64,000 nt of DNA from Nitrosopumilus sp. (GTDB taxonomy: Archaea > Thermoproteota > Nitrososphaeria > Nitrososphaerales > Nitrosopumilaceae), in assembly GCA_965214775.1 (NCBI GenBank), contig OZ243974.1, positions 1,952,001 through 2,016,000 on the forward strand, given 5' to 3'. This document shows positions 2,116 to 56,082 of this stretch, piece by piece (the stretch's first letter is position 1; each line of letters opens with the position of its first letter). A model generated the notes under the pieces. It did not search any database. It was not told where the DNA came from and saw only the letters and a program-made list of their open reading frames with translations. The position numbers and the translations under genes were made by a program.

Positions 2116-2117
2116 CG

Positions 2118-3530: not shown

Positions 3531-3606
3531 GACGGGCCTCCCCGGCACCGCAAAGGCAGGATCAGATTTAAGGCCTCCCTTTTATTCTGAGGGTTGTTTT
3601 TCAGGC

Positions 3607-3918
3607 ATGATAGTGCTCGTTATAGTGGCGATGGTAATCATATTTCTGGCCATAGGGTCTGCCGGAAACTACTTTTTGCACCGCGATGACGTCGCCCAGA
3701 CAAGGGAGGAGTCTGCCGAGACCATAAACGAACGCATGAGGGAGGACATCACGGCGTCCCTTGACACCGGAGGAAACATCGTCATAGACGACAGGTGGGA
3801 CGGTGGCAGCGAGATCCAGGGCATAATGATCCGCTGCGACAACGGGACGATGTTCACGGCGCCTGCCGGCCAGGACAATACGAAGGTGATGGAGGAGCTG
3901 TCGCTGAAATGCGGATAA
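3607..3918 (+). CDS. Small pilin-like membrane protein
   Basis: N-terminal hydrophobic helix followed by an amphipathic helix and short beta region; sits in a pilus gene cluster. Confidence 0.55.
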   Translation: MIVLVIVAMVIIFLAIGSAGNYFLHRDDVAQTREESAETINERMREDITASLDTGGNIVIDDRWDGGSEIQGIMIRCDNGTMFTAPAGQDNTKVMEELSLKCG

Positions 3919-10727: not shown

Positions 10728-12296
10728 TCGCGTATACTAGACATTATGAAAGGTCAACCCTCCACATACTGTGAGATCGAGGCATCTATAGCATCGTCGA
10801 CGGAGAGGATACAGAGTCTGGAAAAGGGCATCAAGGAACGTGACAACATCATCAAGGAACAGGGCAATGTCATCAAGGAACGTGACACGACCATTGAGAA
10901 ACTAAACAATATAATCAAGGATCAGGGCAGCAGGCTCCGATACTATGAGAACGAGAACTCGCCCCCGTCGGCAGACTCGCTTGCGTGGAAGGAGCAAAAG
11001 GCACAGAGGAAAAAGGAGAGGGCCCGATCCGATGCTGCAGCCGGGAATAACGGCACCAGGAATAACAGGAAAAAGCCCGGCGGCCAAAAGGGCCACAAGG
11101 GCGTATCGCGCGTCCACCGGCCCACCCGGGTACAAAGGCACTACTTTCCGGGCGGACAGGCGCCAGAGTGCTGGTGCGGCACCCCCACGAAGATCATGAA
11201 CAGGTCGCAGACACGCGACATGATTGGATTTGAGATCAAGGCGATTGAGACTCGCCACGAGTCGCAGAGGGCAGTATGCCCAAAATGCGGCACGTATCAT
11301 ATTGCCCCCAACGGCCTGCCCCGATGCGGCAACTACGACACGAGCGTGGTCACAGCCGTCACCAAGCTGCGCAGCGAGGGCGTTCCATACAGCAGGATCC
11401 CAGGCATCCTGTCAGATATCACGGGTGTGGACATGTCAAAGTCAACTGCAATCAACAACGTGGGGCGCGTCTGCGAGGCCGCAAAGGCGCCTGCCGAGGC
11501 CATCGCAAAGGAGGTAAAGAGCTCAAAGACCGTCTGCATAGACGAGACGGGGATCAACCTGGCAGGCAAGACGGGGTGGGTGTGGACCATACTGTCAGCA
11601 GCAGGCATACTCATGATATACAACAATACAAGGAAGGCCCTGGTTCTGGACCAGTACATGAGCGGGTACAAGGGCGTCGTCACATCGGACGGATATCCCG
11701 CATACAAGAGGTTCGATCCGGGGGGAAGGCACCAGCGGTGCTGGGCGCACGAGCTGCGATCCCTCCTGTATGGTTCGCAGAAAAAGGACGCCCCGCTGTT
11801 TGCAGGGATCCTGTACCGGCAGGGGCAGCAGCTGTTCAGGGACGCCAAGACGTGTCTGGAAGGGTGGGACAAGCTGTCCCCCGAGGATCTCCTAGATCTT
11901 GAGGAGAGGACGGGGATAAGGGCCGCCGACGGGCTGATGGGCCGGCACTCGCCGGAGCTGCGCCGGCGGTTTGAGACCAACATGCGCAACGTCCTGTTCG
12001 GATACAGGGATACGCAGGACGAATCGTTGAAAGCTCTTGTCAGGCGGATGTACAATGCCCTGCCTGGCCTGTTTGCATTCCTGGAATACGAGGACGTCGA
12101 GCCCACCAACAATTCTGCAGAGCGGGCGCTGCGCCCCGTCGTACTGCAGGACAAGATAAGCGGCCAGATCAAGGGCGGCCTGGTCTGGATGGACAGGTAC
12201 GGATGGCTCAATACATGCACCTCGACGTGGAAGCTGCAGGGCAAGTCCATCATGGTTGAGGTAGCCAAAATAATTCAGGGGTAGGTGACCTCATAC
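10661..12296 (+). mobile_element. IS66-family element (single ORF, ISBst12-like), intact copy
   Basis: Perfect 15-bp TIRs GTATGAGGTCACCTA/TAGGTGACCTCATAC; 8-bp target duplication ATCTCAAG at 10653-10660 and 12297-12304. Confidence 0.95.
10746..12284 (+). CDS. IS66 transposase
   Basis: Coiled coil, NSPPS, KPGGQKGHKG, zinc finger, IDETG, SDGYPAY, QRCWAH, PTNNSAERALR. Confidence 0.95.
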   Translation: MKGQPSTYCEIEASIASSTERIQSLEKGIKERDNIIKEQGNVIKERDTTIEKLNNIIKDQGSRLRYYENENSPPSADSLAWKEQKAQRKKERARSDAAAGNNGTRNNRKKPGGQKGHKGVSRVHRPTRVQRHYFPGGQAPECWCGTPTKIMNRSQTRDMIGFEIKAIETRHESQRAVCPKCGTYHIAPNGLPRCGNYDTSVVTAVTKLRSEGVPYSRIPGILSDITGVDMSKSTAINNVGRVCEAAKAPAEAIAKEVKSSKTVCIDETGINLAGKTGWVWTILSAAGILMIYNNTRKALVLDQYMSGYKGVVTSDGYPAYKRFDPGGRHQRCWAHELRSLLYGSQKKDAPLFAGILYRQGQQLFRDAKTCLEGWDKLSPEDLLDLEERTGIRAADGLMGRHSPELRRRFETNMRNVLFGYRDTQDESLKALVRRMYNALPGLFAFLEYEDVEPTNNSAERALRPVVLQDKISGQIKGGLVWMDRYGWLNTCTSTWKLQGKSIMVEVAKIIQG

Positions 12297-12403
12297 ATCT
12301 CAAGCTTTACTGTAAAAAACACGTTTCCTGTCGCGATAACGTCGCTGCTGTCGGTGGTAGCCCTCAATATCGTGCCCGAGATCGTGTCGATGATGGGGGT
12401 GGC

Positions 12404-15223
12404 ATGACGGTGTTCGGGCGGAAAAAAAAGGAGACTGCAAGGCCCGCTCCCAGAAGGACGGCCAAAAAAACGGACTATGTGGGGTTCAGGTACGGCGACC
12501 CGGCGCTGGCGCCGACCAGCGTGGATGCGAACGCGGCATTCGGGATATCGGCAGAGGAGCGCGTCCACACAGCAATCTTCGGGCTGCCAGGATGCGGCAA
12601 GTCGTCGATACTCAAGCTCCTCATATACCAGAACATCCGGAACGGCCAGGGATTCATGGTGATAGACCCGCACGGGGAGCTGGCGCGCGACGTTATGAGG
12701 ATGATACCAGAGTCGCGGCACCAGGACGTCATATATGTCAACCCGGCCTCGCTTTACAGGTTCGGCCGGACCGTCCAGATCAACCCGCTTGAGGTAAAGT
12801 CGGAGGACGAGCGGTACGTGGTGGTCATGGGGTTTGTCAACATGCTGCAGAACCTCTACAAGGACTCGTGGGGCCCCAGGCTTGAGACTGTCCTGCGAAA
12901 TGCCGCCAACGCCCTTGTCGAGACCAAGGAACACAACAGGCTGTTCAACATATCCGCGATGATAACGGACGAGGGAAGCCGGGAGGCCATACTGGACGAC
13001 GTGGCGTCAAAGCCAGTAAGGCACTTTTGGGAGGAGATATTCGCAAAGCAGTACGCCAAGGATGCGGGCTCCTCGGCGTACAACAAGATAGACAAGATAC
13101 TCTCGACGCCGACGGTGGCAGCCATGCTTGATGCCGCAGAATCAAGCATCTCGATCCAGGACATAATCGAGAACAGGAGGATGCTCATAGTGGATCTCTC
13201 AACCGGCGCCTCGGACGACATCTGCCAGTTCCTGGGGTCCATATTTCTCAACATGGTCTACGTGTACGCCAAGAAGAGGATAGACATACACGGGGACTCC
13301 GACGACGAAGGCCTCGATCCGTTCTATCTTTACGCCGACGAGGCGCACATGTTCTCAAACACCACGATGTCGGAGATGCTCCGCGCCCTGCGAAAGTTCA
13401 ACATAAAGATGACCATCGCGACCCAGACGTGCAACGCGTACGACAGGGAGTTCTCCATGGAGATACCCGGCGTCTGCAAGACCATAATCACCGGAAGGTG
13501 CGACTATAACACGGCAAACCTGTTCCGCGCAAACATGAGCATGTCAGTAGAGGACATGCAAAAGATTCCGTCGCACTCCTTTGCGCTGGCGTCTGACGAG
13601 GGCGGGGTGAGGGCCCACGGGGTCTTCCGCTCAAGGCCGGTCCCGCTTGAGGGAGACGCAGAGTCGGCGGGGCGCGACTGGAAGGAGGTCGCAAAAAAGT
13701 CGGCTGCCAGGTGGGGCAGGCAGATAATGATGGAAAAGTACATCCCGCGTGCCGGCATCGGCAAGCTGCTCTTTACTCCGGTCGAGGCCTGCATCGTACA
13801 CCTGATGCACTTTGACAACCGCGACTGGTACCGCGAAGAGATATTCCAGGCGGCAAAGACCGTGTTTCCGGGCATACTTGAGAGGCACATAGCGGGCGCC
13901 CTGGACAAGCTGACGCGGGAGCTGTATGTCAGGATAATGTATCCCAAGAGTGATGACAGCGACCAGCACGACTCCATAAAGAGATACGTCCTGGGCGAGA
14001 GGAGCAGCAAGACGTACCTGTCAGAGGCATACGGAGGGAGGCGAGCCGGAGGCGAGGGGCACAACGACGTGCTCTTCAAGATAGCAGATGAGAACAGGCG
14101 GCGCCACAGATACTGCATACCGGATCTCGGCCAGGGCGGGGACGAGGCGCCGGACCTTCTGATAATAGAGCCGGGAACGGTAAAAAGCAGGGAGGGATAC
14201 ATGACGTACGATCCGCACAGGTGGAACGAAAAGAACAGGCTTGCCGTCGAGGTGGAGACCGATCCGGGAAAGCACATGGAGCACTCCGTATACAACTATA
14301 CCAAGAACCATGATCGCGGCTATGACGTGTGGTTTGTCTGCTTTGAGGAGCGCCACAGGGAAAGGCTTGAGGAGGCCATAAGGCAAAAGCATCCCCCCTT
14401 TGAGGGGTGCAAGATGGACACCATAAACGCCGGCCGCGTCCTGAAGGGCGCAGACGATCTGCCGGAGACGTTTGAGGAGACATTTACAGACGTCGCAGTC
14501 AGAAAGATAGACGAGATACTAAAGACACTTGCAGACGACACGCCACTTGAGAGGCAGCCCACCAAGAGTACGGTTCCACGGGAGGCGCTTGCAGACGCCT
14601 CCAAGGGAACAAGGGATCTTGCCGAGGTTTACACAAATACCGTCGGCTCATCAAGGGAGGACGTCAAGTCCTCCGTGCACGTGCCTGCGGCAGATCCCCC
14701 GCCGGGCCACATAGAGAACGAGACGCAGTGGGCGATACTTGACGGCATACGGAAGGCAGGTGCCATGGAGCGCGACGCCGATCTCATCCGCGAAAAGTTC
14801 GGGATAGGCCGCGCAAGCAGGAACGAGATAAAGGGCGCCATCGAGTACCTGCTGATGAAGAAGATGCTGCGGCAGGTATACTATTCGAGGCAGAAAAAGA
14901 CAGGCTCCCTTGACGGGAGCGGCGACAGGAAGACAAGCAGACGTGTCGCGATGCTCGTGCCGTTTGAGAGTCATCCGGAGTCCGGGTCAGGCGGTCATCC
15001 GGAGCCGGCACCCCCGGCCGATCAGGAATCTGACACAGGACACGATCCTGAACAGGATCCTGATCAGCTCCCCGGCGAAAAGCCGAGTGCTGCCATAACC
15101 GACTTTGATGCGTCCGAATACACGGACATTGCTCTTGCGGCGATGCTGGCAGATGAGACGCAAAAGGCAAACCACGCTGCGGCCAAGGCCGAGCTTGACA
15201 GACGGGAGGACGTCGAGGACTGA
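12404..15223 (+). CDS. VirD4/TraG/HerA-like coupling ATPase with C-terminal wHTH and PD-(D/E)xK-like domain
   Basis: Walker A GLPGCGKS, VIDPHGEL, WGPRLE, Walker B YADEAHMF, RKF..ATQ; C-terminal APDLLII..LAVEVET. Confidence 0.8.
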   Translation: MTVFGRKKKETARPAPRRTAKKTDYVGFRYGDPALAPTSVDANAAFGISAEERVHTAIFGLPGCGKSSILKLLIYQNIRNGQGFMVIDPHGELARDVMRMIPESRHQDVIYVNPASLYRFGRTVQINPLEVKSEDERYVVVMGFVNMLQNLYKDSWGPRLETVLRNAANALVETKEHNRLFNISAMITDEGSREAILDDVASKPVRHFWEEIFAKQYAKDAGSSAYNKIDKILSTPTVAAMLDAAESSISIQDIIENRRMLIVDLSTGASDDICQFLGSIFLNMVYVYAKKRIDIHGDSDDEGLDPFYLYADEAHMFSNTTMSEMLRALRKFNIKMTIATQTCNAYDREFSMEIPGVCKTIITGRCDYNTANLFRANMSMSVEDMQKIPSHSFALASDEGGVRAHGVFRSRPVPLEGDAESAGRDWKEVAKKSAARWGRQIMMEKYIPRAGIGKLLFTPVEACIVHLMHFDNRDWYREEIFQAAKTVFPGILERHIAGALDKLTRELYVRIMYPKSDDSDQHDSIKRYVLGERSSKTYLSEAYGGRRAGGEGHNDVLFKIADENRRRHRYCIPDLGQGGDEAPDLLIIEPGTVKSREGYMTYDPHRWNEKNRLAVEVETDPGKHMEHSVYNYTKNHDRGYDVWFVCFEERHRERLEEAIRQKHPPFEGCKMDTINAGRVLKGADDLPETFEETFTDVAVRKIDEILKTLADDTPLERQPTKSTVPREALADASKGTRDLAEVYTNTVGSSREDVKSSVHVPAADPPPGHIENETQWAILDGIRKAGAMERDADLIREKFGIGRASRNEIKGAIEYLLMKKMLRQVYYSRQKKTGSLDGSGDRKTSRRVAMLVPFESHPESGSGGHPEPAPPADQESDTGHDPEQDPDQLPGEKPSAAITDFDASEYTDIALAAMLADETQKANHAAAKAELDRREDVED

Positions 15224-15309
15224 CAGTCCGCCGGCCCATGCGGTGCTGGCAGACTGACAGACAAACGGGCGGGATTTCCCCCTTAAAACGTGCCATGGCA
15301 TTTTTTTCC

Positions 15310-16032
15310 ATGAACCGAAGGAACAAAAAATACGTCGATTTCAAAAAGATCTGCGGGGTGCTCCACGTGTCAGAGGCCAGGCTTGAGAAGCTCCTGGGCC
15401 AGTGCATCCGGAGCAAAAGCGACAACATCTCAATATACAACAAGGCCACAGACATGCGGTACTATCTAAAGCCCGTATGTGTGGAGGGAGAGACGTGCAT
15501 GGTCGAACTCTACGAGGTCCACGGCGGCTCTGAAAACAAGGTGATATTCCGCAACTGGGTGTGCACCAGGAGGCCCAAGAACAGGAAGAGGGAGGCCGCA
15601 ATATCTGAGATCTTTGGCGTCGTGATCCTTATCGGGATAGCTGGCGTCGGTGCAGTACTGTTCCACTCGATTGCGATCGAGTGGGCAGAGACCGAGGAGA
15701 GGTATGACACCGAGCTGGTCGTCTTCAAGCTGGCAAAGCTGTCTGCAGGAGACAGCGTGGCGCTGGCCGAGATATCATTTTTGACGTACGGGGAAGGGGC
15801 CGTATCACTGTCATTTGGGGAGGATCTTGAATCAGTGGATCTGCTTGATTCTGACGGGGAGCCGCTGGACGGCGATACAACGCGCGTAGAGGAGCTGAGC
15901 TCGGGCAGGCTCGTAACGTTCGAGGGGCTGGTCGACATTCCAGAGGATGCGGGGCGCGGCAGCCACATCCATGCGGCCATCATACTGGATGGCGGGCAGG
16001 AGGTACAGCACGTGGTGAGGATCAGTGGCTAG
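15310..16032 (+). CDS. Archaeal type IV pilin-like protein with long N-terminal extension
   Basis: Internal class III signal-like RKREAA/ISEIFGVVILIGIAGVGAVLF; TATA-like TTAAAA about 25 bp before ATG 15310. Confidence 0.7.
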   Translation: MNRRNKKYVDFKKICGVLHVSEARLEKLLGQCIRSKSDNISIYNKATDMRYYLKPVCVEGETCMVELYEVHGGSENKVIFRNWVCTRRPKNRKREAAISEIFGVVILIGIAGVGAVLFHSIAIEWAETEERYDTELVVFKLAKLSAGDSVALAEISFLTYGEGAVSLSFGEDLESVDLLDSDGEPLDGDTTRVEELSSGRLVTFEGLVDIPEDAGRGSHIHAAIILDGGQEVQHVVRISG

Positions 16033-17155
16033 GAGTGCAAGCCAGGCCACCGGCGAGCTGCTGTCTGCCATTGCAGTCATAGGCGTCACCGCTGTGGCAG
16101 CCGCAATACTGTTTGTTACGTTTGCAGAGCAAAACCAGGAGGGAACCGAGGTGATAGACACCAGGGGCGAGATAGAGCTGGCACGCGCCTCGGAGCTGGT
16201 CGACACCTCGCATGTCAGCTGTGCGGGCACGCGCCTCTCGTTTCTGTTACACAACTATTCCAGGGATTATGCGATGAGTACCGACGGGTTCAGGGCATAC
16301 ATTCTTGACAGCGGCGGCGAGCTTGCGTTCCGCCTGTCAGAAGGCGGCGACGACTATATCGAGATAATGACTCCAAGCGTTACCGGCGGCGCGTGGCACC
16401 ACGTCGTGCTGACAAACGACGGCAGCGGAACCCGCGAGGGCATGAAGGTCTACCTTGACGGCGAGCCTGCCGAGTCTGTTCCCGGCGGCGGAGCCGGCGC
16501 CGTCACAGGATCGATCCTCAACAATTTCCCCATAGGTATCGGGGCAAGCAGTACGGGAAAGGATCCGGTATCGGATGCGGCAATCGACGAGCTGATATTG
16601 TCCAGGCACCTGCTGACCCCCGGGCAGGTGGAGGCCTATTATTTGAGCGGGACATATCCGTACACGGCCATCATTCATCTTCCATTTGAGGATGATCTGG
16701 TTTCAAACGACGTATCCAACCACGGAACACTCGTAAGCGGAACCGAGGAGTACACCGACTCCACCAGGGAACCTGGCCTGGGACGTGCGCTGGTTCTTAA
16801 CGGCACACATGTCACGGTACCCGAGGTCAACCTGGACTATGACGCCAATGAGATATTCACGATATCGTTCTGGATAAAAAAGACGGCGCCTGACGACGTA
16901 GACGTGTCCATACTCTCAAAGTCAGACCAGTACTGGAACTCGGGGCTGAACGTGTGGATGTGGTCCGGCTCCGGAGGCAAGCTCAAGGACGGCGACCTTG
17001 GCAGCATCGAGTGGCTTGCACTCGACATGGCCACGGCCGCCGACGAGATACCTCCGGCGACCACGATAGTAGTGAGATATGACGGATACGTCTGCGGTGA
17101 CATGCTGATCCTGCAGACGCCGTCAGGGGAGATAGTCCGGGTGAGAACCGCATGA
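16025..17155 (+). CDS. Pilin-like adhesin with LamG/concanavalin A-like domain
   Basis: N-terminal pilin-like hydrophobic helix; WHHVVLT..MKVYLDG..IG..IDEL and FTISFWIK LamG motifs. Confidence 0.75.
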   Translation: MARSASQATGELLSAIAVIGVTAVAAAILFVTFAEQNQEGTEVIDTRGEIELARASELVDTSHVSCAGTRLSFLLHNYSRDYAMSTDGFRAYILDSGGELAFRLSEGGDDYIEIMTPSVTGGAWHHVVLTNDGSGTREGMKVYLDGEPAESVPGGGAGAVTGSILNNFPIGIGASSTGKDPVSDAAIDELILSRHLLTPGQVEAYYLSGTYPYTAIIHLPFEDDLVSNDVSNHGTLVSGTEEYTDSTREPGLGRALVLNGTHVTVPEVNLDYDANEIFTISFWIKKTAPDDVDVSILSKSDQYWNSGLNVWMWSGSGGKLKDGDLGSIEWLALDMATAADEIPPATTIVVRYDGYVCGDMLILQTPSGEIVRVRTA

Positions 17156-19506
17156 GGGCCGTGCCGGCAGCGCTGTTTCTACTGCTGCTGGCATCTGCCC
17201 TCCCGCTGCTGGCATCCTTTCTTGCCGAAGACGCCTTTGCCCACCCGTACGGAAGATGCAGGCCGTGGATAACGGGATCCTTGCACTATGACGTCAGGGA
17301 CGCCGACGGGAACCCGAGAAGCAACCCCAACGACACGCTGTATCCCGGCGATGCCGTAAGGTATGAGTTTAGCTATGGATGGAGCGGCAACTGCTACCGC
17401 GAAAGGACGTATCCGGTGACTGACAGCGGCGCCATAAGCGTATACGGATCGCACGGCTCCCACGGGTCGCGCGGCGGCAACGCGGAGGCGCTCATAGCCA
17501 GGACCAACGACTGCCACGGAGGGGGAAGCCGCGGTGCCGCAGGATACGGGGGCGATGACTCGTGGGACCGCGACAGCGCAAAGACCGGCTGCGGCGACAT
17601 CAAATACAAGATCTCAGGCAAGGAAAAGCACCGGCACCGGTGCGGCGATGGCTACTGCACGTTCTACATCACGCGCTGGGCACACGACACGCTGCATCCT
17701 GCCACGGTTGCCCCCGTAGTCGAGGTCCAGATGTACGAGCACATCATAAGGGATCCCTACGGATACATGGCAGCAAACGGAGACCATACAAACTATGTAT
17801 GGGATCCCATAGCAATTGAGCATGCGGCCGACTTTACGTACAAGAACCAGAGGGAGGGGACGATAACCTTTGACTATTCACGGGCGTTCTCCCCGCTCGT
17901 CGAGGAGGGGGGATACGAGTGCGACCGGAGGTGCGTCCGATCCCTGGCGGTGGCGGCAGGCTCGCCGCTTGATGCCACAGGAATAGGATTCCTTCCGTAC
18001 CAGCATGCGTCAGAGAACGGGGGAGGGATGTACGCGTATGCGTCGCCGGGGCTTGACGTGATGGGCAACAGGGAGATACGGTATGACGTCCGCGTCCTCA
18101 ACGAGGGGCGCCTGATAAACACGCACCACAACCAGACAGTCCAGCTGATAGTCAGCTATGATCCGGTGTTTGACAAATATGAGTATCCGGTGCTGGCAGA
18201 CGGGCGCAAGTACGCGTATGATGACAGGCAGGGACTCGTGATGCTGTACTCGGGCTCCGTCGGCAGCGGCCCGGACGACGACGGGCTGCTTCACGGGGAC
18301 AGGCGGAGCAGGATAAACGCGTTTTACCCCAACACCACCATGCACTCCCTCTTTGACGGCATCCCAGACGTAGCCATTGATCCCGATCTTCTTGAGTGGG
18401 ATTCCATAGATCACGTGAGAGGGACGGATCCCGACGGGTGGCTCAGCCTGGATGCAGGACACGCGATGTTCGAGGACGAGGGGTATGGCATACTGAGGTT
18501 CTCCCAGGAGATCTCTGGCATCGTGCACCGGGACTCTAACAACCTCAACTTCCGCCACAATGCAACCACACACAACGTGATAGCGTCTGACAGGTGGGCA
18601 GGCCATGATTCTTATGCCAACTTCAACTATACCTACCAGTACCCGCACACGCCGTTTGCGGCATGGTACAACGTCACGGCCTTTGACGCGTCGGGGGCAG
18701 CCGACGACGGCGTGACGCCCATAACGGTATCTGCCACCGTCGCAAACCTGACGCACGCAGGCTCCGTGCCGCAGCACATACCGGCAGGACAGGGCAGGGT
18801 CACCGTAATGCTGGATGCGTACGTCCATGACAAGGCGCTTCACGACACCGGCGATGAGGCCTTTGCTGCTGCCGTACTTGACGAGACGTACGACATGGAG
18901 AACGGCGCAGGCGGCACCGGCGACGTATCGATGTGGCTAAAAAAGACGGGACTGTCATTGGATGAGAACTACATCCCTGGAAACGACATACTCGGACAGC
19001 CGCGGTACCTCTTGCTGGGGCTCGAGTCGGAGATGGACACCGTCATAGAGATACCCGGCAGGGAGATCAGCCGCATACTTCACACGGAGTTTGACGTCGA
19101 TTACGTCGAGGAGATGACCGTGTCCGAGATTCCGCTGTCCATGTCGCGTTCTGTCAGCGACGGTCTCCGGACGCAGCTGGTCTCCGTGTCTGTCCCGGAA
19201 TGGTTCGGGTACATAAGCTCCATCGAGATGAACGGGGAGAGCGTCGACTTTGGGACCGACTGCGTCTACGAGTGCGTCTTTACTGACATCGATGGCGGAA
19301 ACGTCACGGTATACAACGTCTGGGGCGGGACTGCCGTGGGGACGCTCAACGCCTCGGACATTCTGGTGCATGCCACCCCAGAGGTCGTCTTTGAGGAAAG
19401 CCACGATCTCATCTGGTATGTCGTGGCCGTAGGCATCATGGGGTTTGTGGCGTATTCTGCCCTGAGGCATTTCTGGAAGAGGACGCTTGTATCTTCGTCG
19501 CAGTGA
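17152..19506 (+). CDS. Large membrane-anchored surface protein
   Basis: Signal peptide, Cys/His/Gly-rich N-terminal domain, C-terminal TM LIWYVVAVGIMGFVAYSAL. Confidence 0.7.
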   Translation: MRAVPAALFLLLLASALPLLASFLAEDAFAHPYGRCRPWITGSLHYDVRDADGNPRSNPNDTLYPGDAVRYEFSYGWSGNCYRERTYPVTDSGAISVYGSHGSHGSRGGNAEALIARTNDCHGGGSRGAAGYGGDDSWDRDSAKTGCGDIKYKISGKEKHRHRCGDGYCTFYITRWAHDTLHPATVAPVVEVQMYEHIIRDPYGYMAANGDHTNYVWDPIAIEHAADFTYKNQREGTITFDYSRAFSPLVEEGGYECDRRCVRSLAVAAGSPLDATGIGFLPYQHASENGGGMYAYASPGLDVMGNREIRYDVRVLNEGRLINTHHNQTVQLIVSYDPVFDKYEYPVLADGRKYAYDDRQGLVMLYSGSVGSGPDDDGLLHGDRRSRINAFYPNTTMHSLFDGIPDVAIDPDLLEWDSIDHVRGTDPDGWLSLDAGHAMFEDEGYGILRFSQEISGIVHRDSNNLNFRHNATTHNVIASDRWAGHDSYANFNYTYQYPHTPFAAWYNVTAFDASGAADDGVTPITVSATVANLTHAGSVPQHIPAGQGRVTVMLDAYVHDKALHDTGDEAFAAAVLDETYDMENGAGGTGDVSMWLKKTGLSLDENYIPGNDILGQPRYLLLGLESEMDTVIEIPGREISRILHTEFDVDYVEEMTVSEIPLSMSRSVSDGLRTQLVSVSVPEWFGYISSIEMNGESVDFGTDCVYECVFTDIDGGNVTVYNVWGGTAVGTLNASDILVHATPEVVFEESHDLIWYVVAVGIMGFVAYSALRHFWKRTLVSSSQ

Positions 19507-19578
19507 CCGCATGGCAGGCCGCGCCTAGGGGCCTGACTCCCTTCCGGCTTAATATGGAAACGCATTCCATTAGGTATC

Positions 19579-19654
19579 AGCGGGGTGGGGAAGCCAGGCC
19601 AATCCCGGCGGGTTCATTGCCCGCAGACCGGCAGTTCAAATCTGTCCCCCGCTA
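19579..19654 (+). tRNA. tRNA-Met(CAT), archaeal initiator type, with non-canonical anticodon loop
   Basis: Full cloverleaf: acceptor AGCGGGG/CCCCGCT (A1-U72), D stem GGGA/TCCC, anticodon stem GCGGG/CCCGC, loop TT-CAT-TG, T arm GGCAG-TTCAAAT-CTGTC; TATA-like TTAATAT about 25 bp upstream. Confidence 0.9.
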
Positions 19655-19749
19655 TCATAGGTGCCAGCTTCCTACACCTTCCAGCGGGAACCGGCTCCCG
19701 CTGACTTGTAAGTCCCAAAATCCAGCTATGCCTTTAAATTATAAGACTC

Positions 19750-20517
19750 GTGGGCTCATCAGTGAGAACTAGGCTAATTGCTTGCGAGCATGCAAGCACG
19801 ACAATACTTGACGGGGAGACGGTCTGCAGGAAATGCGGCGTAGTCCTCGGCGAGCAGCGCGAGCAGGTGCCTGCCGGCGAGCGTGAGGCTGCCGGGGCAA
19901 AGTCTACTACAAACATCTATGAGAGGCATGTCACAGGCAGCCGGGACATAATTCCGGATACCGACCAGATGAAGTCCCTCCGGCGCTATTCGCACACGAA
20001 CATCTATGACAATGACAGCAGGAAAAAGCTCAGGAACATATCTCGGTTTTCAAACGCATGCGACTCGCTGGGGATCGATGACACCGCTGCAGAGTACGCC
20101 GTAAGGCTGTTCCACGCGGCCCTCAAGCAGAGGGGCGGCGACAGGCGGACAGCCGACGTGGCTGCCTGGTCTATCTACAAGAGCTGCAAGAACCACGGCA
20201 TCCCGATCGACGGCAACGTCATAGCCGACAACGTAAGGCGGCAGTTCGGGCGGATGCGGATAGGCGACATTATGAGCATCGCGTATGACATGATGGACAT
20301 CCCCGTCAAGGACAACCCCGACGGCGTCATGAAGTACCACTTTCGGCTGGTCCTCAAGAGGCTGACAAAAAAGCTCCCCCGCATGGACGACAGGCAGTAC
20401 TCAAGAAGGCAGGCAGATGCCTGGAACCTGTACAATACGCTATTTCTGTCCGGCTCCTACGACAAGAGGGCAAAGAACGCAGTATGCAAGGCCTTTGGAA
20501 TAAGGAGGAACACATGA
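19750..20517 (+). CDS. Transcription initiation factor IIB (TFB)-like protein
   Basis: Zn ribbon CEH..GETVCRKCGVVL; cyclin-fold segment ACDSLGI..AVRLF..VAAWSIYKSCKNHGIP; start codon uncertain. Confidence 0.8.
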   Translation: MGSSVRTRLIACEHASTTILDGETVCRKCGVVLGEQREQVPAGEREAAGAKSTTNIYERHVTGSRDIIPDTDQMKSLRRYSHTNIYDNDSRKKLRNISRFSNACDSLGIDDTAAEYAVRLFHAALKQRGGDRRTADVAAWSIYKSCKNHGIPIDGNVIADNVRRQFGRMRIGDIMSIAYDMMDIPVKDNPDGVMKYHFRLVLKRLTKKLPRMDDRQYSRRQADAWNLYNTLFLSGSYDKRAKNAVCKAFGIRRNT

Positions 20518-21635
20518 AGGCCTCAGAGGAAAGGGTGATGACAAGCCGCATCGAGGAGCCCATATACCAGGCAACCGTCATCATATCATCAAACGTCAGG
20601 CTTCTTGCAAAGGCCATCGCAGAAAAGGGAGTCCCTCCTACCAGGCCGATCCTCGCAAAGCTTGACGGCAGGTACTATCCTGTCGGAAACATAGAGACCG
20701 TCATGGCTGCCATGGAGGCCGGGCTGAAGAGCATTGCATGTTCTGTCATACCCGTAAAGTCAAAGACGGACATGATAAACCTGCACCTGCTGCATACGCG
20801 CTCTAGCACCTACAACCCGGTAAGGTTCACCAGGATGATAAACGAGGCCATAAGTGAGAACGTCGAGATTGACATCGGAAACCTGCCAAACTCGTTTCGG
20901 AGGAGGATCAGTCTTGTCCCCGACGTCGAAAAGCGGCTTGACGACTTTGTGGCGGACATGGGCAGGAAGATGATCGAGGTCCCGTCCATGCTGCACATAG
21001 TGGCCCCCCTCTCCCGCCTTGAGCCCGAGGATCAAAAGGCGGCGCTGAAGATGGTCCTCAACTATACGACGATGCGCAAGCAGGCGTACCCGCCAGACCA
21101 GATAACGCTCAACCAGATCTTCGAGCAGTACCGCTACAAGGACTCTGGAGGAAACGGCGATGATGGTGATGACGGTGACGGCGGGCCCGGTGCCTCCGGG
21201 GGCGATGACAATGCAGGGGAGCCCGGGGCAAATCCTAGGTCAAAGCCGGCGCAGGATCCTGCCGGTGACGATGACGTCGAGATGGATCTTGCAAAGAAAA
21301 GGGGATCTGTCGGCGTCCGGATAAAGCCAAAGTCCGACTCGATAGAGTACCAGTGCAAGTGCAGCAGGAAGATACTCGTGAACCTCAAGAACGGGATGGT
21401 CCAGAGGATGGAGGATAATGGGGCAAACATACTTGCCGTAAACGACGATGAGAACACGTCAGTCTGCTACATGCTCCCGGGAGAGCTGGCATCACAGCTG
21501 GAGCTTGACGTCTCTGACATCATAAACTGCTACCTCATAGGCGGCAAAAAATCCGAAAAGGCCGCCCTGATCACCAAGAGAAAGATCCCAAAGAAGGTGC
21601 AGGCCGAGATCTCAAGGGCGCTGAGGTCCGCCTGA
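20514..21635 (+). CDS. ParB/Srx N-terminal domain protein (divergent)
   Basis: LAKAIAEKGV..PIL..DGRYYPVGN..AAMEAGLKSI..V resembles the ParB-N fold; the canonical GxRR motif is degenerate. Confidence 0.6.
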   Translation: MKASEERVMTSRIEEPIYQATVIISSNVRLLAKAIAEKGVPPTRPILAKLDGRYYPVGNIETVMAAMEAGLKSIACSVIPVKSKTDMINLHLLHTRSSTYNPVRFTRMINEAISENVEIDIGNLPNSFRRRISLVPDVEKRLDDFVADMGRKMIEVPSMLHIVAPLSRLEPEDQKAALKMVLNYTTMRKQAYPPDQITLNQIFEQYRYKDSGGNGDDGDDGDGGPGASGGDDNAGEPGANPRSKPAQDPAGDDDVEMDLAKKRGSVGVRIKPKSDSIEYQCKCSRKILVNLKNGMVQRMEDNGANILAVNDDENTSVCYMLPGELASQLELDVSDIINCYLIGGKKSEKAALITKRKIPKKVQAEISRALRSA

Positions 21636-21721
21636 GCTTGCACGCAGCGTGCCTGTCTGGCAGCCGGCCCGGGTGCGCCGAGGCCGGCATTGGGCTTGCG
21701 TCGCCTGAGTGCTTTGTCGGC

Positions 21722-22285
21722 ATGTCACACGACTGGTACACCGAGCACATATCAAGGAGCGGCAGCATGTACGGCCTGCTGGACATCATGATGAGCCTGA
21801 TGCATGCACGCAACGCGGTTCCAAGGGAGGATCTTGCAAAGGCGGCCTGCTCGGCAGGAATCCGCAAGAATGAGATCTCGCGGTGCAAGAGGCGGGGGCT
21901 GATAGGCAGCGACGGAGCGCACCTGCACGTCACAGGAAAGGGTTACGGACTCTTTGCTGCGGCCAGGATGGGCATACGGCCGCTGTCGCTTCTGATACTG
22001 TGCCATGCCCACGCATATGTCAGGGCCACAGGAATGTACGGCAAGTCAAACGACATGTTCTCAGAGATGTACGGCGTGGTCGTAAAGAACCACGTGTTTT
22101 CCAGCAGGTTCTCTGCCCTGGTCAAGCACGGCTGGATAAGGAAACAGGGGAGGCGCGGCGCGTTCTGGGAGTTCCCGCGCGCCGGGGAGCTGGAAGGCTA
22201 TGCCAGCATACTTGACGGCATACATGCAGCAATGTCGGAGAAAAAGACCATTTTAAGTGACGCGGGGGTTTTCGCGCATGGATGA
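21722..22285 (+). CDS. Hypothetical protein, probable winged-helix DNA-binding protein
   Basis: Two wHTH-like segments (RGLI..LHVTGKG; FSALVKHGWIRK). Confidence 0.5.
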   Translation: MSHDWYTEHISRSGSMYGLLDIMMSLMHARNAVPREDLAKAACSAGIRKNEISRCKRRGLIGSDGAHLHVTGKGYGLFAAARMGIRPLSLLILCHAHAYVRATGMYGKSNDMFSEMYGVVVKNHVFSSRFSALVKHGWIRKQGRRGAFWEFPRAGELEGYASILDGIHAAMSEKKTILSDAGVFAHG

Positions 22286-22958
22286 CTATCTTGCAGTCGC
22301 CGTGGCAGTCATAATGATGGCGCCTCTTGCGTGGTCGGACGTCCGGAGCCGCACCACGTACAATGACATCACGTTATCCATGACGGGGGTCGCCGCATGC
22401 TTTTTCGTCTACGGGTTCCTTACGCGGTATATGCACCAGGATCCCCTGTGGCTGCTACTGACGTTTGCCGGCATCGGCATGGCGGCAGCCATGCTCCTGA
22501 TGTATTTTATGCGCGTCTGCGGGCTCGGGGACGTGGCGGCTGCCGCCATAATCGCCATGATGATCCCGCAGGTCGGCGGGTTTCCAGCCGCGTTTGCGGC
22601 CATATTCTGCTCGTATATTCTGGGGATTGCCTTCACCGTGTCACACAACGTCTGTGCAAACATGTCTGACATGGCGCGCGGCAGAAAGTACTGCCGCTCG
22701 ATGATATACACGCACATCAAGCGCAGGGGGGAACGGTTCTGCTGCAGGCCTGCCTCCCTGTCAAGGATAGGTTCTGTCGGCCACGACGGCGACCTCCTGG
22801 ATGCGGATGGCGGCGACCTGTTTGTGGACGAGAAGGTAAAGGGAATGCCCGTTACCAAGAGCGTACCGATGGTCACCATGATGTTTGCGTCCCTGGTCGG
22901 CGTCTCACTCCTCTCGCTGTTTGGAGGCATAGGCGGGTATCTTGACTTCCTTAAATAG
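22278..22958 (+). CDS. Prepilin peptidase (A24, PibD/FlaK-like)
   Basis: Multi-TM protein; WSDVRSR first catalytic Asp, GLGD second Asp, C-terminal VPM motif. Confidence 0.85.
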   Translation: MDDYLAVAVAVIMMAPLAWSDVRSRTTYNDITLSMTGVAACFFVYGFLTRYMHQDPLWLLLTFAGIGMAAAMLLMYFMRVCGLGDVAAAAIIAMMIPQVGGFPAAFAAIFCSYILGIAFTVSHNVCANMSDMARGRKYCRSMIYTHIKRRGERFCCRPASLSRIGSVGHDGDLLDADGGDLFVDEKVKGMPVTKSVPMVTMMFASLVGVSLLSLFGGIGGYLDFLK

Positions 22959-22977
22959 AACCCGGCATTACACTGTG

Positions 22978-23895
22978 ATGATTCCAATCGGACTTGACAT
23001 CGGAACAGGATACGTCAAGATTTCCGGAAACGGAAGGAAGAGAAAGTTTCCATCGCTGTATTCGTGCATGTACTCTGACGGGCGCGGCGACATCGAGGAC
23101 CAAAAGGCGCCGGCAAGAAAGAGGGTGCTCGTAGAGTCAACCGGCATGGATGCGCTTGCCATGGGTTCTGCGCGGAACGGCGTCATGATACGCCCCGTAA
23201 AGCACGGCGTCCCGCACAACGATTCGGGCTTTGCCGCACTCGTGAGGGAGGCAGTCCGGTCGATAGGGGTAAGCGACCCCTCGCAGGCAGTCATTGCCGC
23301 AGGCGTGACTTATGACGCGCAGGACAAGGTTCCGCAGATAAGCCGCATAATAACCAAGACGCTGTCCCCCGGCGGGCTGCGCATAATCCCGCAGGCCTAC
23401 GGCACGCTGATGTCATGCAAGACTAGGAGGGGCACCGTCGTGAACATAGGCCACGGCACTACCGAAATAATAGCCATACGCGACGGCATGCACGAGGGCA
23501 CGTCCATACCCAAGGCCGTAAGCTTTGTCACTGACCAGCTTGACAAGCGCCGGGGCTCCTACGTCGACTACAAGTCGCTCCTGTCGCGCGACGAGGCCAT
23601 GACCGCGCGGCTGGTAAAGCTGCTGGCAGAGCACATCGCCGACGAGGTCTCAAGGTTCGGCGCCTCGACTGAGGGGATAATACTTGCGGGCGGCGGCTCG
23701 CTCCTGCCAGGAATGCGCGAGAACCTGGAGGCCATGCTCGGTGTCACGATCACGGTTCCCGACGATCCCGTATACAGCAATGCTGCAGGCCTTGAGATGA
23801 TTGCAGCCAAGAGATCCGGCAGGGCCGCCGCTCCGGAGGACAGGGCAGAGACTGCGCCTGCGGCCGCCGGAAACCCGCCCGGGCCTTCTGCCTGA
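22978..23895 (+). CDS. ParM/StbA-like actin-fold ATPase
   Basis: IGLDIGTGYVK (phosphate 1), PQAYG, VVNIGHGTTE (phosphate 2), ILAGGGS (adenosine), NAAG. Confidence 0.85.
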   Translation: MIPIGLDIGTGYVKISGNGRKRKFPSLYSCMYSDGRGDIEDQKAPARKRVLVESTGMDALAMGSARNGVMIRPVKHGVPHNDSGFAALVREAVRSIGVSDPSQAVIAAGVTYDAQDKVPQISRIITKTLSPGGLRIIPQAYGTLMSCKTRRGTVVNIGHGTTEIIAIRDGMHEGTSIPKAVSFVTDQLDKRRGSYVDYKSLLSRDEAMTARLVKLLAEHIADEVSRFGASTEGIILAGGGSLLPGMRENLEAMLGVTITVPDDPVYSNAAGLEMIAAKRSGRAAAPEDRAETAPAAAGNPPGPSA

Positions 23896-23968
23896 CTGCC
23901 GTGGTGCATATCTGGCGCACGCAGGCCGCACGCCGATGTCTTAATAGCGGAATGATATCCTGTATTGT

Positions 23969-24907
23969 ATGTCGGCTGTGGTGACTGGTATCGTCGTTGT
24001 TCTGGTAGTCGCAGGCATAGCCTGGTTCGGGGTCAATCATGCAGGTGATGATATGACGCCGGAGATGCATGAGGATGCCGGTTATGTGCCGCCCGTCACA
24101 ATAGCCGTCGATTCACCGCCGACGAGGAATTATGCGGCAGTCGCCGGCGCGGCAAGGCAGGCGGCCGACGCATGGAACTCGGCCAATCCAGGCGGGGTAT
24201 ACTTCAGTGTCGGCGCAGCTGATGACACCGACATAGTGATTGTGCTGACAGACAAGATAGCCGGCGATACCGTGGGTCTGTACCAGTCTGGACGCTGGGG
24301 CGAGCCTGCCACCATAACCGTAGAGAGTGGAAGGCCGTGGTGTGACGGCGTGTTCCGCACGTACTCGGAGGGAATGATGGCAGATACGATAGCCCACGAG
24401 CTGGGACACCACCTGGGTCTCGGCCATACCGCCGACGAGTCGCACCTGATGTACGGCATGCATGATCCGCCCCCCGTACACGCGCATTCATTTGACGATC
24501 TCGGGTACTCCATGCCGCAGCTTGCGGGGCACCAGCAGTTTGGCGCGCTGGTGCCGCTGGCAGCCGAGATGGATGCCGCCGAGTCGGAGATGGCCGTGCT
24601 CGACGCCGGCATGGACGATGCCATCGGGCGCATAGATCGTCTTGCGGCAGAGCACGAGAGTCTTGCGGTTGTGTATGACGAGATTGCCGGCCGGTACGCG
24701 TCGCTTGCAGGCGACGGCGGCGCACACCTGCAGGCCCAGGCCCTTCATGACAGGCTTGAGGAGATTCTTGTGGAGATACGGGCAGTCGAGGACGGCATGG
24801 AGGGGGCCGTGGCAGACTATGACGACATGGAGGCCAGGTACAACGGGGCCGTCGGCAGGTACAACGCCGCTGCCGAAAAGTACAACTGCGCGGCAGGCGG
24901 GACGTAG
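23969..24907 (+). CDS. Membrane-anchored matrixin-like zinc metalloprotease with C-terminal coiled coil
   Basis: HELGHHLGLGH zinc motif plus Met-turn HLMY; N-terminal TM. Confidence 0.85.
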   Translation: MSAVVTGIVVVLVVAGIAWFGVNHAGDDMTPEMHEDAGYVPPVTIAVDSPPTRNYAAVAGAARQAADAWNSANPGGVYFSVGAADDTDIVIVLTDKIAGDTVGLYQSGRWGEPATITVESGRPWCDGVFRTYSEGMMADTIAHELGHHLGLGHTADESHLMYGMHDPPPVHAHSFDDLGYSMPQLAGHQQFGALVPLAAEMDAAESEMAVLDAGMDDAIGRIDRLAAEHESLAVVYDEIAGRYASLAGDGGAHLQAQALHDRLEEILVEIRAVEDGMEGAVADYDDMEARYNGAVGRYNAAAEKYNCAAGGT

Positions 24908-42301: not shown

Positions 42302-42324
42302 GGTTTTGCCTTAACACTTTTCAT

Positions 42325-56016: not shown

Positions 56017-56082
56017 CGGGCCTCTGAGATTACAGGGCAGATCAGCATTATGCTTATGAGGCCCGATGTGACAGGGCTACAC

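What the first reader, a model, noticed from the sequence alone, without database searches (positions are those of the whole stretch)
19579..19654. Element-encoded initiator tRNA with a rewritten anticodon loop (U32, U37, G38)
Seen: every stem and initiator hallmark is intact (A1-U72, G11-C24, three G-C pairs in the anticodon stem, CAU anticodon), and it has its own TATA-like box. The loop, however, is UU-CAU-UG rather than the usual CU-CAU-AA. Known: position 37 is almost universally a purine; some VapC toxins cut initiator tRNA in the anticodon stem-loop; MGE tRNAs with altered loops have been proposed to resist such nucleases. Inference: changes confined to the loop suggest selection, giving either a nuclease-resistant replacement tRNAi (anti-defence) or a decoy/regulatory tRNA. 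It lies directly upstream of the TFB paralogue.
Basis: partly seen in the sequence, partly recalled or inferred. Interest (0 to 1): 0.75.

Follow-up and report, generated by a model that had tools for sequence, protein, structure and literature searches.

The report
Island-borne initiator tRNA with altered loop
An archaeal genomic island carries an extra, well-folded copy of the tRNA that starts protein synthesis, changed at three normally invariant anticodon-loop positions. Nothing yet shows that it is used, so it is an intriguing single case, not a proven mechanism.

Summary
Window 19579-19654 (+) is a complete 76-nt tRNA-Met(CAU) with archaeal initiator features and the loop UUCAUUG (19613-19619). 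Contigs from four studies read it identically, so it is not a sequencing error. It scores 46.5 bits on Rfam tRNA when scanned alone; larger scans missed it. It is 84% identical to the host's own initiator tRNA. Nine of the 12 differences are compensated or lie at positions that vary among working initiators. The other three hit the loop, which reads CUCAUAA in every cellular relative I could read. A TATA-like box sits at -30..-24, as in host tRNA genes.

The gene lies in a GC-rich island (about 58% against 47%) with conjugation-like genes, a TBP homologue and a TFB-like gene. Seven syntenic clusters in related genera carry no tRNA, so conservation of U37/G38 cannot be tested. Rare U37 initiator-type tRNAs do occur in metagenomes. 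Virus-borne initiator-like tRNAs often vary at 32/38, almost never at 37.

Best reading (0.4): an expressed, methionine-accepting variant initiator. Early decay (0.3) and a non-decoding role (0.15) remain open. The anti-nuclease idea has no direct support.

The parts
1..24907 (+). Window part of a GC-rich island (55-61% GC against 47.1% for the genome; it begins about 10 kb before the window). Co-directional cluster: SNase-domain protein, T2SSF-like membrane protein, IS66 insertion, 939-aa HerA/VirD4/VirB4-like ATPase, LamG protein, 784-aa protein, the tRNA, TFB-like gene, prepilin peptidase, actin/ParM-like protein, metalloprotease.
   Evidence: GC profile; Pfam; NCBIfam; synteny with clusters in other genera
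17152..19506 (+). 784-aa gene of no known family, directly upstream of the tRNA. In homologous clusters it is conserved next to the TFB-like gene.
   Evidence: no Pfam family; 30-50% identical homologues in L117, L118, L119, L123
19549..19555 (+). TATA-like box TTAATAT, -30..-24 from the tRNA 5' end
   Evidence: By eye, host tRNA genes carry an A/T-rich box at the same distance. The heptamer occurs only twice on the + strand of the 36-kb island.
19579..19654 (+). 76-nt initiator-type tRNA-Met(CAU) paralogue, 84% identical to the host tRNAiMet
19613..19619 (+). Anticodon loop UUCAUUG (U32, U37, G38, where cellular initiators have C32, A37, A38). RNAfold predicts a U32-G38 pair that leaves a 5-nt loop.
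   Evidence: sequence confirmed in contigs of four studies
19682..19703 (+). 8-bp hairpin (loop ACCGGC) whose arms resemble the 5' and 3' acceptor ends of the tRNA. Meaning unknown: possibly the remnant of a second copy, or a processing or termination signal.
   Evidence: sequence; in the MFE fold, though the region's z-score of -1.45 is not significant
19733..19744 (+). TATA-like box TTTAAATTATAA of the TFB-like gene
19750..20517 (+). Divergent TFB/TFIIB-like gene. The real start is probably GTG at 19762, which aligns with Met-1 of the homologues and lies about 25 nt after the TATA box (leaderless GUG start, inferred).
   Evidence: Pfam zinc ribbon only, below cut-off

Best explanation
A genomic island with conjugation-like genes acquired a full initiator-tRNA gene with its own archaeal promoter. 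It lies between two conserved island genes. The RNA most likely is made, folds as a normal cloverleaf and is charged with methionine, since the CAU anticodon and A73 are kept. It can probably enter initiation, since A1-U72 and the three G-C pairs are kept. It differs from the host initiator only where loop-reading enzymes act. U37 cannot carry an A37 modification such as t6A. U37/G38 flank the 38/39 bond that known bacterial VapC toxins cut in tRNAfMet. U32-G38 can close the loop. I therefore read it as an alternative or back-up initiator that is blind to some loop-directed modification enzyme or nuclease, or that has altered start-codon behaviour. Shown: intact structure, promoter-like box, non-random placement of changes, correct sequence. 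Inferred: expression, charging, use in initiation, and any benefit of the loop.
For: Cloverleaf is the MFE fold. RF00005 gives 46.5 bits in isolation and the own-host tRNA model gives 59.1 bits. Of the 12 differences from the host initiator, 5 are in the T stem and all keep pairing: two double compensations and one G-U. None touches the acceptor, D or anticodon stems or the T loop. Of 58 columns invariant in 9 distinct canonical initiators from 49 genomes, the copy deviates at 5, with 3 in the loop (P = 0.010), 1 in the D loop and 1 compensated. TTAATAT lies at -30..-24, where host tRNA genes have their A/T box, and it occurs only twice on the + strand of the 36-kb island. The sequence is identical in contigs of four studies. 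U37 is compatible with a maintained tRNA elsewhere: metagenome loci L106 and L107 carry archaeal-type initiator tRNAs with loop UUCAUUA that differ from each other by compensated stem changes yet keep the loop. They score 62.2 and 60.8 bits on RF00005. Mobile elements do carry initiator-like tRNAs with altered loops. 18 of 58 on IMG/VR contigs are non-canonical. Two Halococcus dombrowskii plasmids carry UUCAUAU. Literature: enteric VapCs cut tRNAfMet between A38 and C39 (PMC4105405, introduction passage). Phage tRNAs with loop changes are proposed to evade anticodon nucleases (PMC10264068, abstract and passages).
Against: It is a single case. 0 of 7 syntenic clusters in related genera have a tRNA within 17.5-20 kb, and the homologous intergenic spacers (about 110-160 nt) show no remnant. 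So the island family does not need it, and conservation of the loop cannot be shown. No other archaeal genome among the species representatives carried a Y37 initiator-type gene: the genome-contig scan gave 5 bacterial stretches, of which 4 are tRNAs. Position 37 is a purine in 24 of 24 aligned host tRNAs and in 57 of 58 virus-borne initiator-like tRNAs, so U37 may simply be disabling. No candidate loop nuclease was found in or near the island. The clustering statistic is post hoc.
Confidence: 0.4

Rival explanations
1. Passenger copy in early decay. A working initiator gene was captured from an unsampled lineage or another element. Once redundant beside the host gene, it began to lose function through loop mutations, and U37 already disables it.
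For: It is absent from all 7 syntenic clusters, so it is dispensable to the island. The host keeps its own canonical initiator. U37 is almost never seen in working tRNAs: 0 of 24 host tRNAs, 1 of 58 virus-borne initiator-like tRNAs, and no other case in the 150 listed rows of 215 initiator-pattern matches in 401 genomes of the phylum. There is no evidence of conservation.
Against: All 21 stem pairs are intact, with compensated T-stem changes. The promoter-like box is intact. Three of the five deviations at invariant columns fall in 7 loop columns (P = 0.010). The only clearly degenerate tRNA-like match in this genome (G000:C1:951470-951544, 31 bits) has acceptor ends that cannot pair. L106 and L107 show that a U37 loop can be kept while stems co-vary.
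Confidence: 0.3
2. A tRNA-shaped RNA with a non-decoding job. It could be a processing signal (RNase P/Z cuts separating the upstream operon from the TFB-like mRNA), a decoy that binds an enzyme or sensor reading initiator tRNA, or a regulator of the adjacent TFB-like gene.
For: It lies inside a co-directional gene row, 72 nt after the 784-aa gene and 95 nt before the TFB-like ORF. The loop, the part that decodes, is the only conserved part that changed. An acceptor-like hairpin follows at 19682-19703.
Against: It has its own TATA-like box, and the TFB-like gene has another, so no processing is needed to separate transcripts. The CAU anticodon and U33 are exactly kept, which a mere structural signal would not require. 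Homologous clusters work without it.
Confidence: 0.15
3. Recombination relic: an att-type hybrid or remnant left by integration of an element into an initiator tRNA gene.
For: tRNA genes are common integration sites. In metagenome loci L106 and L107 the same upstream flank is joined to different tRNA bodies and unrelated downstream DNA, a pattern typical of such sites. Differences from the host gene are denser in the 3' half.
Against: The gene is complete and sits in the middle of a conserved gene row, not at an island edge. There is no repeat of any part of it in the window, and the only other match in the genome is the host gene itself. No tyrosine-integrase match lies in the island. The 3'-half differences are at positions that vary among working initiators.
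Confidence: 0.05

Closest known systems
Cellular archaeal initiator tRNA (tRNAiMet), for example the host's own gene at G000:C1:727225-727299
   Same: A1-U72, identical acceptor, D and anticodon stems, three G-C pairs, CAU anticodon, U33, T loop UUCAAAU, A73; 84% identity overall.
   Different: Loop UUCAUUG instead of CUCAUAA, one extra D-loop base, different variable loop, T stem re-paired. It is a second copy in a GC-rich island. In the phylum sample, the other genomes with two pattern matches either hold two identical canonical copies (G477, G671, G522, G701) or show one gene matched twice (G550, G557).
Phage-encoded tRNAs with anticodon-loop changes, proposed to evade host anticodon nucleases (van den Berg et al. 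2023, eLife, PMC10264068; abstract and passages read)
   Same: A tRNA on foreign DNA that keeps the anticodon and the body but differs from the host counterpart in the loop, next to a bond that known nucleases cut (A38/C39 for enteric VapC on tRNAfMet; PMC4105405 passage).
   Different: The host is an archaeon. The carrier is a conjugation-like island, not a virus. No nuclease partner was identified. According to that paper's text, phages mostly avoid encoding tRNA-fMet. The change includes a pyrimidine at 37.
Initiator-like tRNAs on haloarchaeal plasmids and virus contigs (Halococcus dombrowskii plasmids NZ_CP095009.1 and NZ_CP095006.1; IMG/VR loci L184, L200)
   Same: Extra initiator-type copies on extrachromosomal or viral DNA with a non-canonical loop (UUCAUAU, that is U32 and U38) and intact bodies (L144 scores 57.3 bits on RF00005).
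   Different: They keep A37. I did not check the chromosomal initiators of those hosts, so their loops may be the lineage norm. The Natronorubrum bangense (H1) and Haloferax gibbonsii pHG2 (H5) plasmid copies I read are canonical.
Metagenomic archaeal-type initiator tRNAs with U37 (loci L106, L107: UUCAUUA; L116: CUCAUUA)
   Same: U37, and in L106/L107 also U32, in an otherwise canonical archaeal initiator body.
   Different: They have A38, not G38. The contigs are 35-37% GC, and their ORFs gave no tblastn match in this genome at E <= 1e-8. Their genomic status (sole initiator or extra copy) is unknown, because the records could not be searched whole.
Methanocaldococcus jannaschii tRNA-Ala(GGC) with U37 (mentioned in PMC7668247, figure-legend passage)
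   Same: An archaeal tRNA with a uridine at 37, called 'very unusual' there.
   Different: It is an elongator for a G-starting codon, not an initiator, and it is chromosomal.

Membership tests
tRNA (Rfam RF00005) | Score at or above the 29-bit gathering threshold on the covariance model | tested here: met
   46.5 bits, E 1.1e-9, full model 1-71, when 19577-19656 is scanned alone. Not reported in scans of 451 bases to the whole genome, which I attribute to speed filters. ARAGORN calls it.
Archaeal initiator tRNA | A1-U72 pair at the top of the acceptor stem | tested here: met
   Sequence; identical to the host initiator and to all listed relatives.
Archaeal initiator tRNA | Three consecutive G-C pairs at the bottom of the anticodon stem (29-41, 30-40, 31-39) | tested here: met
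   GCGGG/CCCGC, identical to the host.
Archaeal initiator tRNA | CAU anticodon with U33 and discriminator A73 | tested here: met
Archaeal initiator tRNA | Anticodon loop CUCAUAA, as found in cellular members | tested here: not met
   The loop is UUCAUUG. CUCAUAA is found in 49 of 49 relatives' genes retrieved and, by my reading of the output, in every other listed row (149 of 150 listed; 65 further matches not listed) of the phylum pattern scan.
Archaeal initiator tRNA | Charged by MetRS, bound by aIF2 and used at the P site to start translation | not testable with these tools
   Needs biochemistry.
Nuclease-evading tRNA of a mobile element (phage model, PMC10264068) | Encoded on foreign or mobile DNA | tested here: inconclusive
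   GC-rich island with conjugation-like ATPase, T2SSF-like protein, prepilin peptidase and IS copies. The distribution of homologous clusters is patchy: the TFB-like protein matches in 25 of 401 genomes of the order (the tally includes unpublished genome G309 as a weak match). No integrase or att repeat was found.
Nuclease-evading tRNA of a mobile element (phage model, PMC10264068) | Loop differs from the host counterpart at or beside a nuclease cleavage site | tested here: met
   Positions 37 and 38 differ. The A38/C39 cleavage site of enteric VapC on tRNAfMet comes from the literature. No archaeal nuclease with this specificity is known to me (recalled).
Nuclease-evading tRNA of a mobile element (phage model, PMC10264068) | Host or a competitor encodes a nuclease that targets that tRNA | tested here: not met
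   1 PIN match above cut-off and 4 at E <= 0.001, none in the island. 0 of 10 island proteins match PADLOC. Other nuclease families were not searched.
tRNA pseudogene | Broken stems, lost conserved loop residues or lost promoter | tested here: not met
   21 of 21 pairs stand, the T loop and conserved D-loop residues are kept, and the TATA-like box is in place. Only the anticodon loop departs.
att-site tRNA fragment of an integrative element | Partial tRNA copy repeated at element borders, with an integrase | tested here: not met
   The gene is full-length. No repeat was found, and no PF00589 match lies in the island.

The most novel reading that the evidence does not exclude
The island carries its own initiation kit: a TBP homologue, a TFB-like factor, a second IleRS and a re-tuned initiator tRNA. 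The U37/G38 initiator would be a modification-independent, loop-nuclease-immune starter. It would either keep island genes translated when the host initiator is attacked, or loosen first-base reading at the P site to favour GUG starts such as the apparently leaderless GUG start of the TFB-like gene next to it. It could even be the antidote half of a tRNA-based addiction system.
Probability: 0.1. Interest if true: 0.85.

Novelty: new variant of a known kind. Interest (0 to 1): 0.45.

Why it matters
Extra tRNAs on phages are now read as counter-defence, but this has hardly been explored in archaea or for the initiator tRNA, the one tRNA every protein depends on. A working initiator with a pyrimidine at position 37 would be unexpected: position 37 was a purine in all 24 aligned host tRNAs, and the initiator loop was identical in every cellular relative I could read. 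If it works, it offers a natural test of what residues 32, 37 and 38 contribute to P-site decoding and start-codon choice in archaea, and of whether archaeal islands protect or bias translation initiation. If it does not work, it is a cleanly dated example of how an initiator gene begins to die.

Tried and rejected
Sequencing error: rejected. Contigs from runs X5, X6, X7 and X8 (four studies) cover 19613-19619 with no differences.

RNA evidence: no RNA holder listed, so expression could not be examined.

Rfam miss: the tRNA was not reported, and I first suspected a defective tRNA. I rejected this after (46.5 bits in isolation; 59.1 bits on my own model with filters off). RF00005 does find other U37 tRNAs, so U37 is not the cause.

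Homologous elements: the TFB-like protein was searched in 401 genomes of the order. I examined 27 loci with 1.5-kb flanks (one unrelated tRNA-Thr) and 7 loci of 17.5-20 kb. None has an initiator-type tRNA. Ten genomes were re-searched with the tRNA, eight with strong and two with weaker TFB-like matches. Each gave one match, far from the cluster.

The 784-aa protein found no relative in viral contigs.

Other collections: phage collection, no match.

att-site idea: no repeat of the tRNA, no repeat of the neighbouring tRNA-Ser(GGA) end, no integrase in the island.

Donor lineage: 100 relatives and 400 genomes of the phylum gave nothing closer than 86%.

Whole-record search of the metagenome loci was not possible, so I cannot say whether L106 and L107 are sole or extra initiators.

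PMC3088637 (Winther and Gerdes 2011) is not held. Its result is cited through PMC4105405.

Supplements are closed. The loop tables of PMC10264068 were not seen and might list initiator cases.

Earlier findings of this scan: nothing relevant.

Full report
**Observation**

ARAGORN reports a single tRNA in the window, tRNA-Met(CAT) at 19579-19654 on the + strand. Read directly from the sequence, it has:
- a 7-bp acceptor stem that starts with A1-U72;
- a 4-bp D stem that includes G11-C24;
- an anticodon stem GCGGG/CCCGC, so the three G-C pairs typical of initiators are present;
- the loop U-U-C-A-U-U-G at 19613-19619;
- a 5-nt variable loop, a T arm with the loop UUCAAAU, and A73.

The minimum-free-energy fold is the cloverleaf. 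It adds a predicted U32-G38 pair that would leave a 5-nt loop.

**Is it a tRNA by covariance models?**

Rfam scans of the whole window, of 451 bases, of a 3-kb locus and of the whole genome did not report it. The host initiator scored 60.6 bits in the same scans.

When only 19577-19656 was scanned, RF00005 gave 46.5 bits (E 1.1e-9, full-length match), well above the 29-bit threshold. A model I built from 24 intron-less tRNAs of the same genome, run with filters off, gave:
- 59.1 bits for the island tRNA;
- 71.7 bits for the host initiator, which was in the training set;
- 80.4 bits for the host's other intron-less CAU tRNA (elongator Met or Ile2).

The earlier misses were therefore a filter effect and not a property of the RNA. 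RF00005 also finds other U37 tRNAs without trouble.

**Comparison with cellular initiators**

The genome has four CAU tRNAs. The canonical initiator is at G000:C1:727225-727299. The island copy is 84% identical to it and differs at 12 places:
- one substitution and one inserted base in the D loop;
- C32U, A37U and A38G in the anticodon loop;
- two substitutions in the variable loop;
- five substitutions in the T stem.

The T-stem changes turn A49-U65 into G-C, U51-A63 into C-G and G50-C64 into G-U, so no pair is lost.

Among 100 relatives, 87 had one match each and none had a second copy. All 29 retrieved genes read CUCAUAA. Adding a 400-genome sample of the phylum gave 9 distinct canonical sequences from 49 genomes, the host included, and all read CUCAUAA.

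A pattern scan of 401 genomes of the phylum matched in 208. By my reading of the output, every one of the 150 listed rows except the island copy reads CUCAUAA; 65 matches were not listed. Six other genomes had two matches. Four hold identical canonical duplicates, and in two the same gene matched twice.

Of 58 alignment columns invariant among the canonical sequences, the island copy departs at five: U20C, C32U, A37U, A38G and the compensated U51C. Three of five falling in the seven loop columns has hypergeometric P = 0.010. This test is post hoc.

In 24 aligned host tRNAs, position 37 is A or G in all 24. U32 (10 of 24) and G38 (1 of 24) are within the normal range. U37 is therefore the truly odd residue.

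**Promoter**

TTAATAT lies at -30..-24. By eye, the upstream regions of 30 host tRNA genes show an A/T-rich box at the same distance, for example TTTAATAT before tRNA-Gly(GCC). In the 36-kb GC-rich island this heptamer occurs twice on the + strand and never on the - strand. Its placement is unlikely to be chance.

**Sequence correctness**

Contigs from runs of four different studies cover the tRNA, or at least its loop, with no difference:
- X5: 19178-20600
- X6: 19507-19736
- X7: 19550-19736
- X8: 19598-19748

**Context**

The genome is 47.1% GC. From about 10 kb before the window to about 26 kb into it, GC is 51-61% (55-61% inside the window). The genes there run in one direction and encode:
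- a TBP homologue (L061:9336-9956);
- an SNase-domain protein and a T2SSF-like membrane protein;
- an IS66 transposase insertion;
- a 939-aa ATPase with weak matches to HerA, TrwB/VirD4, TraD, VirB4 and CedD;
- a LamG protein and a 784-aa protein;
- the tRNA;
- a divergent TFB-like protein (zinc ribbon below Pfam's cut-off; a 7-member family profile hits TFIIB structures at E 1.4e-7);
- a prepilin peptidase, an actin/ParM-like protein and a metalloprotease.

A 12-repeat CRISPR-like array follows. Then come IS copies and a second isoleucyl-tRNA synthetase gene, 87% identical to one elsewhere in the genome.

I found no tyrosine-integrase match in the island. There is no att-like repeat of the tRNA-Ser gene that lies near its left edge, and none of 10 island proteins matched PADLOC. 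I therefore call it a conjugation-like genomic island. Its mobility is inferred from composition, gene content and patchy distribution, and is not shown.

**Homologous clusters**

The TFB-like protein has matches at E <= 1e-5 in 25 of 401 genomes of the order. This tally includes one weak match in the unpublished genome G309. Eight matches are strong (31-38% identity), all in four other genera of the same family and none in the window's own genus.

tblastn shows the same gene order in these genomes, including the 784-aa gene next to the TFB-like gene. None of seven 17.5-20-kb loci contains any tRNA. Where the two genes are adjacent, the spacer is about 110-160 nt and shows no remnant of a tRNA. 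Here the spacer is 243 nt.

Each of those genomes has a single initiator match elsewhere. Where ARAGORN could read it (7 of 10 loci), the gene carries a roughly 15-nt D-loop intron and the canonical loop.

The tRNA is therefore a lineage-specific gain of this island.

**Wider scans**

A pattern for initiator-type genes with a pyrimidine at 37 found:
- one stretch in IMG/VR;
- five in the species-representative genomes, all bacterial by record title, of which four are tRNAs by ARAGORN;
- eleven in metagenome contigs.

By resemblance to the archaeal genes above, three metagenome hits are archaeal-type: L106 and L107 (UUCAUUA) and L116 (CUCAUUA).

L106 and L107 share a near-identical 143-nt upstream flank (94% over the 219 aligned nt, tRNA included). 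Their tRNA bodies differ at about a dozen positions with compensated stem changes, and their downstream DNA is unrelated. Both keep the same U32/U37 loop. This is the best available sign that a U37 initiator-type loop can be maintained. Their records could not be searched whole.

The same pattern with any base at 32, 37 and 38 found 58 initiator-like tRNAs on IMG/VR contigs. Forty are canonical and 18 are not. The variation is almost all at 32 and 38; position 37 is A in 54, G in 3 and U in 1.

Among plasmids, two Halococcus dombrowskii plasmids carry UUCAUAU. The Natronorubrum bangense and Haloferax gibbonsii pHG2 copies I read are canonical.

Altered initiator loops on foreign DNA are thus not rare, but U37 is rare everywhere.

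**Mechanism**

Everything known to be needed for a methionine-accepting initiator is kept: the CAU anticodon, A73, A1-U72 and the three G-C pairs. I cite these identity rules from memory of the MetRS and aIF2 literature. Only three loop residues changed, and they are residues that neither pair with the codon nor form the U-turn.
- Residue 37 stacks on the first codon-anticodon pair and, in tRNAs for A-starting codons, normally carries t6A (PMC7668247 passages). The absence of t6A from bacterial initiators has been proposed to explain their tolerance of GUG and UUG starts. It is stated to be unclear whether archaeal initiators carry it (PMC4705826 passages).
- Enteric VapC toxins cut tRNAfMet between A38 and C39 (PMC4105405 passage).
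- Phage tRNAs with loop changes have been proposed to escape such enzymes (PMC10264068).

My best reading, at 0.4, is an expressed variant initiator that differs from the host's exactly where loop-reading enzymes act. Whether the benefit is escape from a nuclease, independence from a modification, or altered start-codon reading is open.

The TFB-like gene just downstream seems to begin with a leaderless GUG at 19762, where its homologues have AUG. I record this as a coincidence worth testing, not as evidence.

**Rivals**

- Early decay of a redundant passenger (0.3). It fits the gene's absence from sister clusters and the rarity of U37. It does not fit the untouched stems and promoter or the clustering of changes.
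- A non-decoding tRNA-shaped RNA (0.15). It fits the position inside a gene row and the acceptor-like hairpin at 19682-19703. It does not explain the exact retention of CAU and U33 or the separate promoters.
- An att relic (0.05). The evidence above disfavours it.

**Verdict**

The anti-defence interpretation is a reasonable analogy without direct support. I rate it a new variant of a known kind (tRNAs on foreign DNA with altered anticodon loops) and of moderate interest (0.45). The surprise is real for a tRNA specialist, but it rests on one gene with no evidence on expression or conservation.

Noticed in passing
window 25218-26067: CRISPR-like array: 12 copies of a roughly 37-nt repeat, spaced 72-75 nt, at the right edge of the GC-rich block. 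Pfam found no cas domain in the four neighbouring ORFs I scanned.
   Followed up: no
window 32516-35893 (-): Second isoleucyl-tRNA synthetase gene, 87% identical in protein to another copy at G000:C1:2233934-2237257. Its first 30 or so residues also match eight other places in the genome. So a translation gene is duplicated 13 kb from the extra CAU tRNA.
   Followed up: partly
L061:9336-9956 (G000:C1:1945336-1945956, about 6 kb before the window): TBP homologue (Pfam TBP 34.5 bits) inside the same GC-rich island. The island thus carries TBP-like and TFB-like genes as well as the initiator tRNA copy.
   Followed up: partly
window 19750-20517: The TFB-like gene probably starts at GTG 19762. That codon aligns with Met-1 of the homologues, which start with ATG, and lies about 25 nt after the TATA box at 19733-19744. 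This suggests a leaderless GUG start next to the odd initiator tRNA.
   Followed up: partly
window 19682-19703: 8-bp hairpin whose two arms resemble the 5' and 3' acceptor ends of the tRNA, with a loop ACCGGC that also occurs at the tRNA's variable-loop/T-stem junction. It may be the remnant of a second, internally deleted copy.
   Followed up: partly
window 10642-12296, 27753-28126, 42306-43954: Two near-identical IS66-family copies and one partial copy. One interrupts the island between the T2SSF-like gene and the ATPase gene.
   Followed up: no
L090, L091, L093, L094, L096, L097, L098 and many rows: Initiator tRNA genes of related genera, and of part of the window's own genus, carry a roughly 15-nt insert in the D loop, a non-canonical intron position. 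The host's initiator and the island copy have none.
   Followed up: no
L106:372-446 and L107:144-218 (metagenome contigs): Archaeal-type initiator tRNAs with loop UUCAUUA. The two loci share a near-identical upstream flank, but differ in the tRNA body (compensated changes) and completely downstream. An integrase gene lies 5 kb away in L106. This looks like a tRNA gene used as an integration site by different elements.
   Followed up: partly
L100/L101 (Chitinophaga provirus), L102, L103, L105, L109-L111, L115: Bacterial initiator-like tRNAs that combine an A1-U72 pair with U37 (mostly loop CUCAUUA; L105 and L110 read UUCAUUC). Several are identical across unrelated records. I know of no description of this rare class.
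   Followed up: no
L144, L145 (Halococcus dombrowskii plasmids); L184, L200 (IMG/VR): Haloarchaeal plasmid and virus contigs carry initiator-type tRNAs with loop UUCAUAU (U32, U38). Whether the host chromosome has the same loop was not checked.
   Followed up: no
G000:C1:951470-951544: A 31-bit RF00005 match with non-pairing acceptor ends, about 840 nt from tRNA-Val(GAC). It is a degenerate tRNA-like remnant and served as a picture of real decay in this genome.
   Followed up: no
window 30401-30470 and 59985-60054; window 56001-60000: A 70-nt repeat (89% identical) follows both the first island and a second GC-rich block (59-60% GC) that holds a 1024-aa ORF. This may be a second related insertion.
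   Followed up: no
window 19579-19654 (method): Infernal's default and relaxed filters dropped a 46.5-bit tRNA in every scan longer than the gene itself. tRNA censuses based on Rfam scans with filters can therefore miss such genes.
   Followed up: yes
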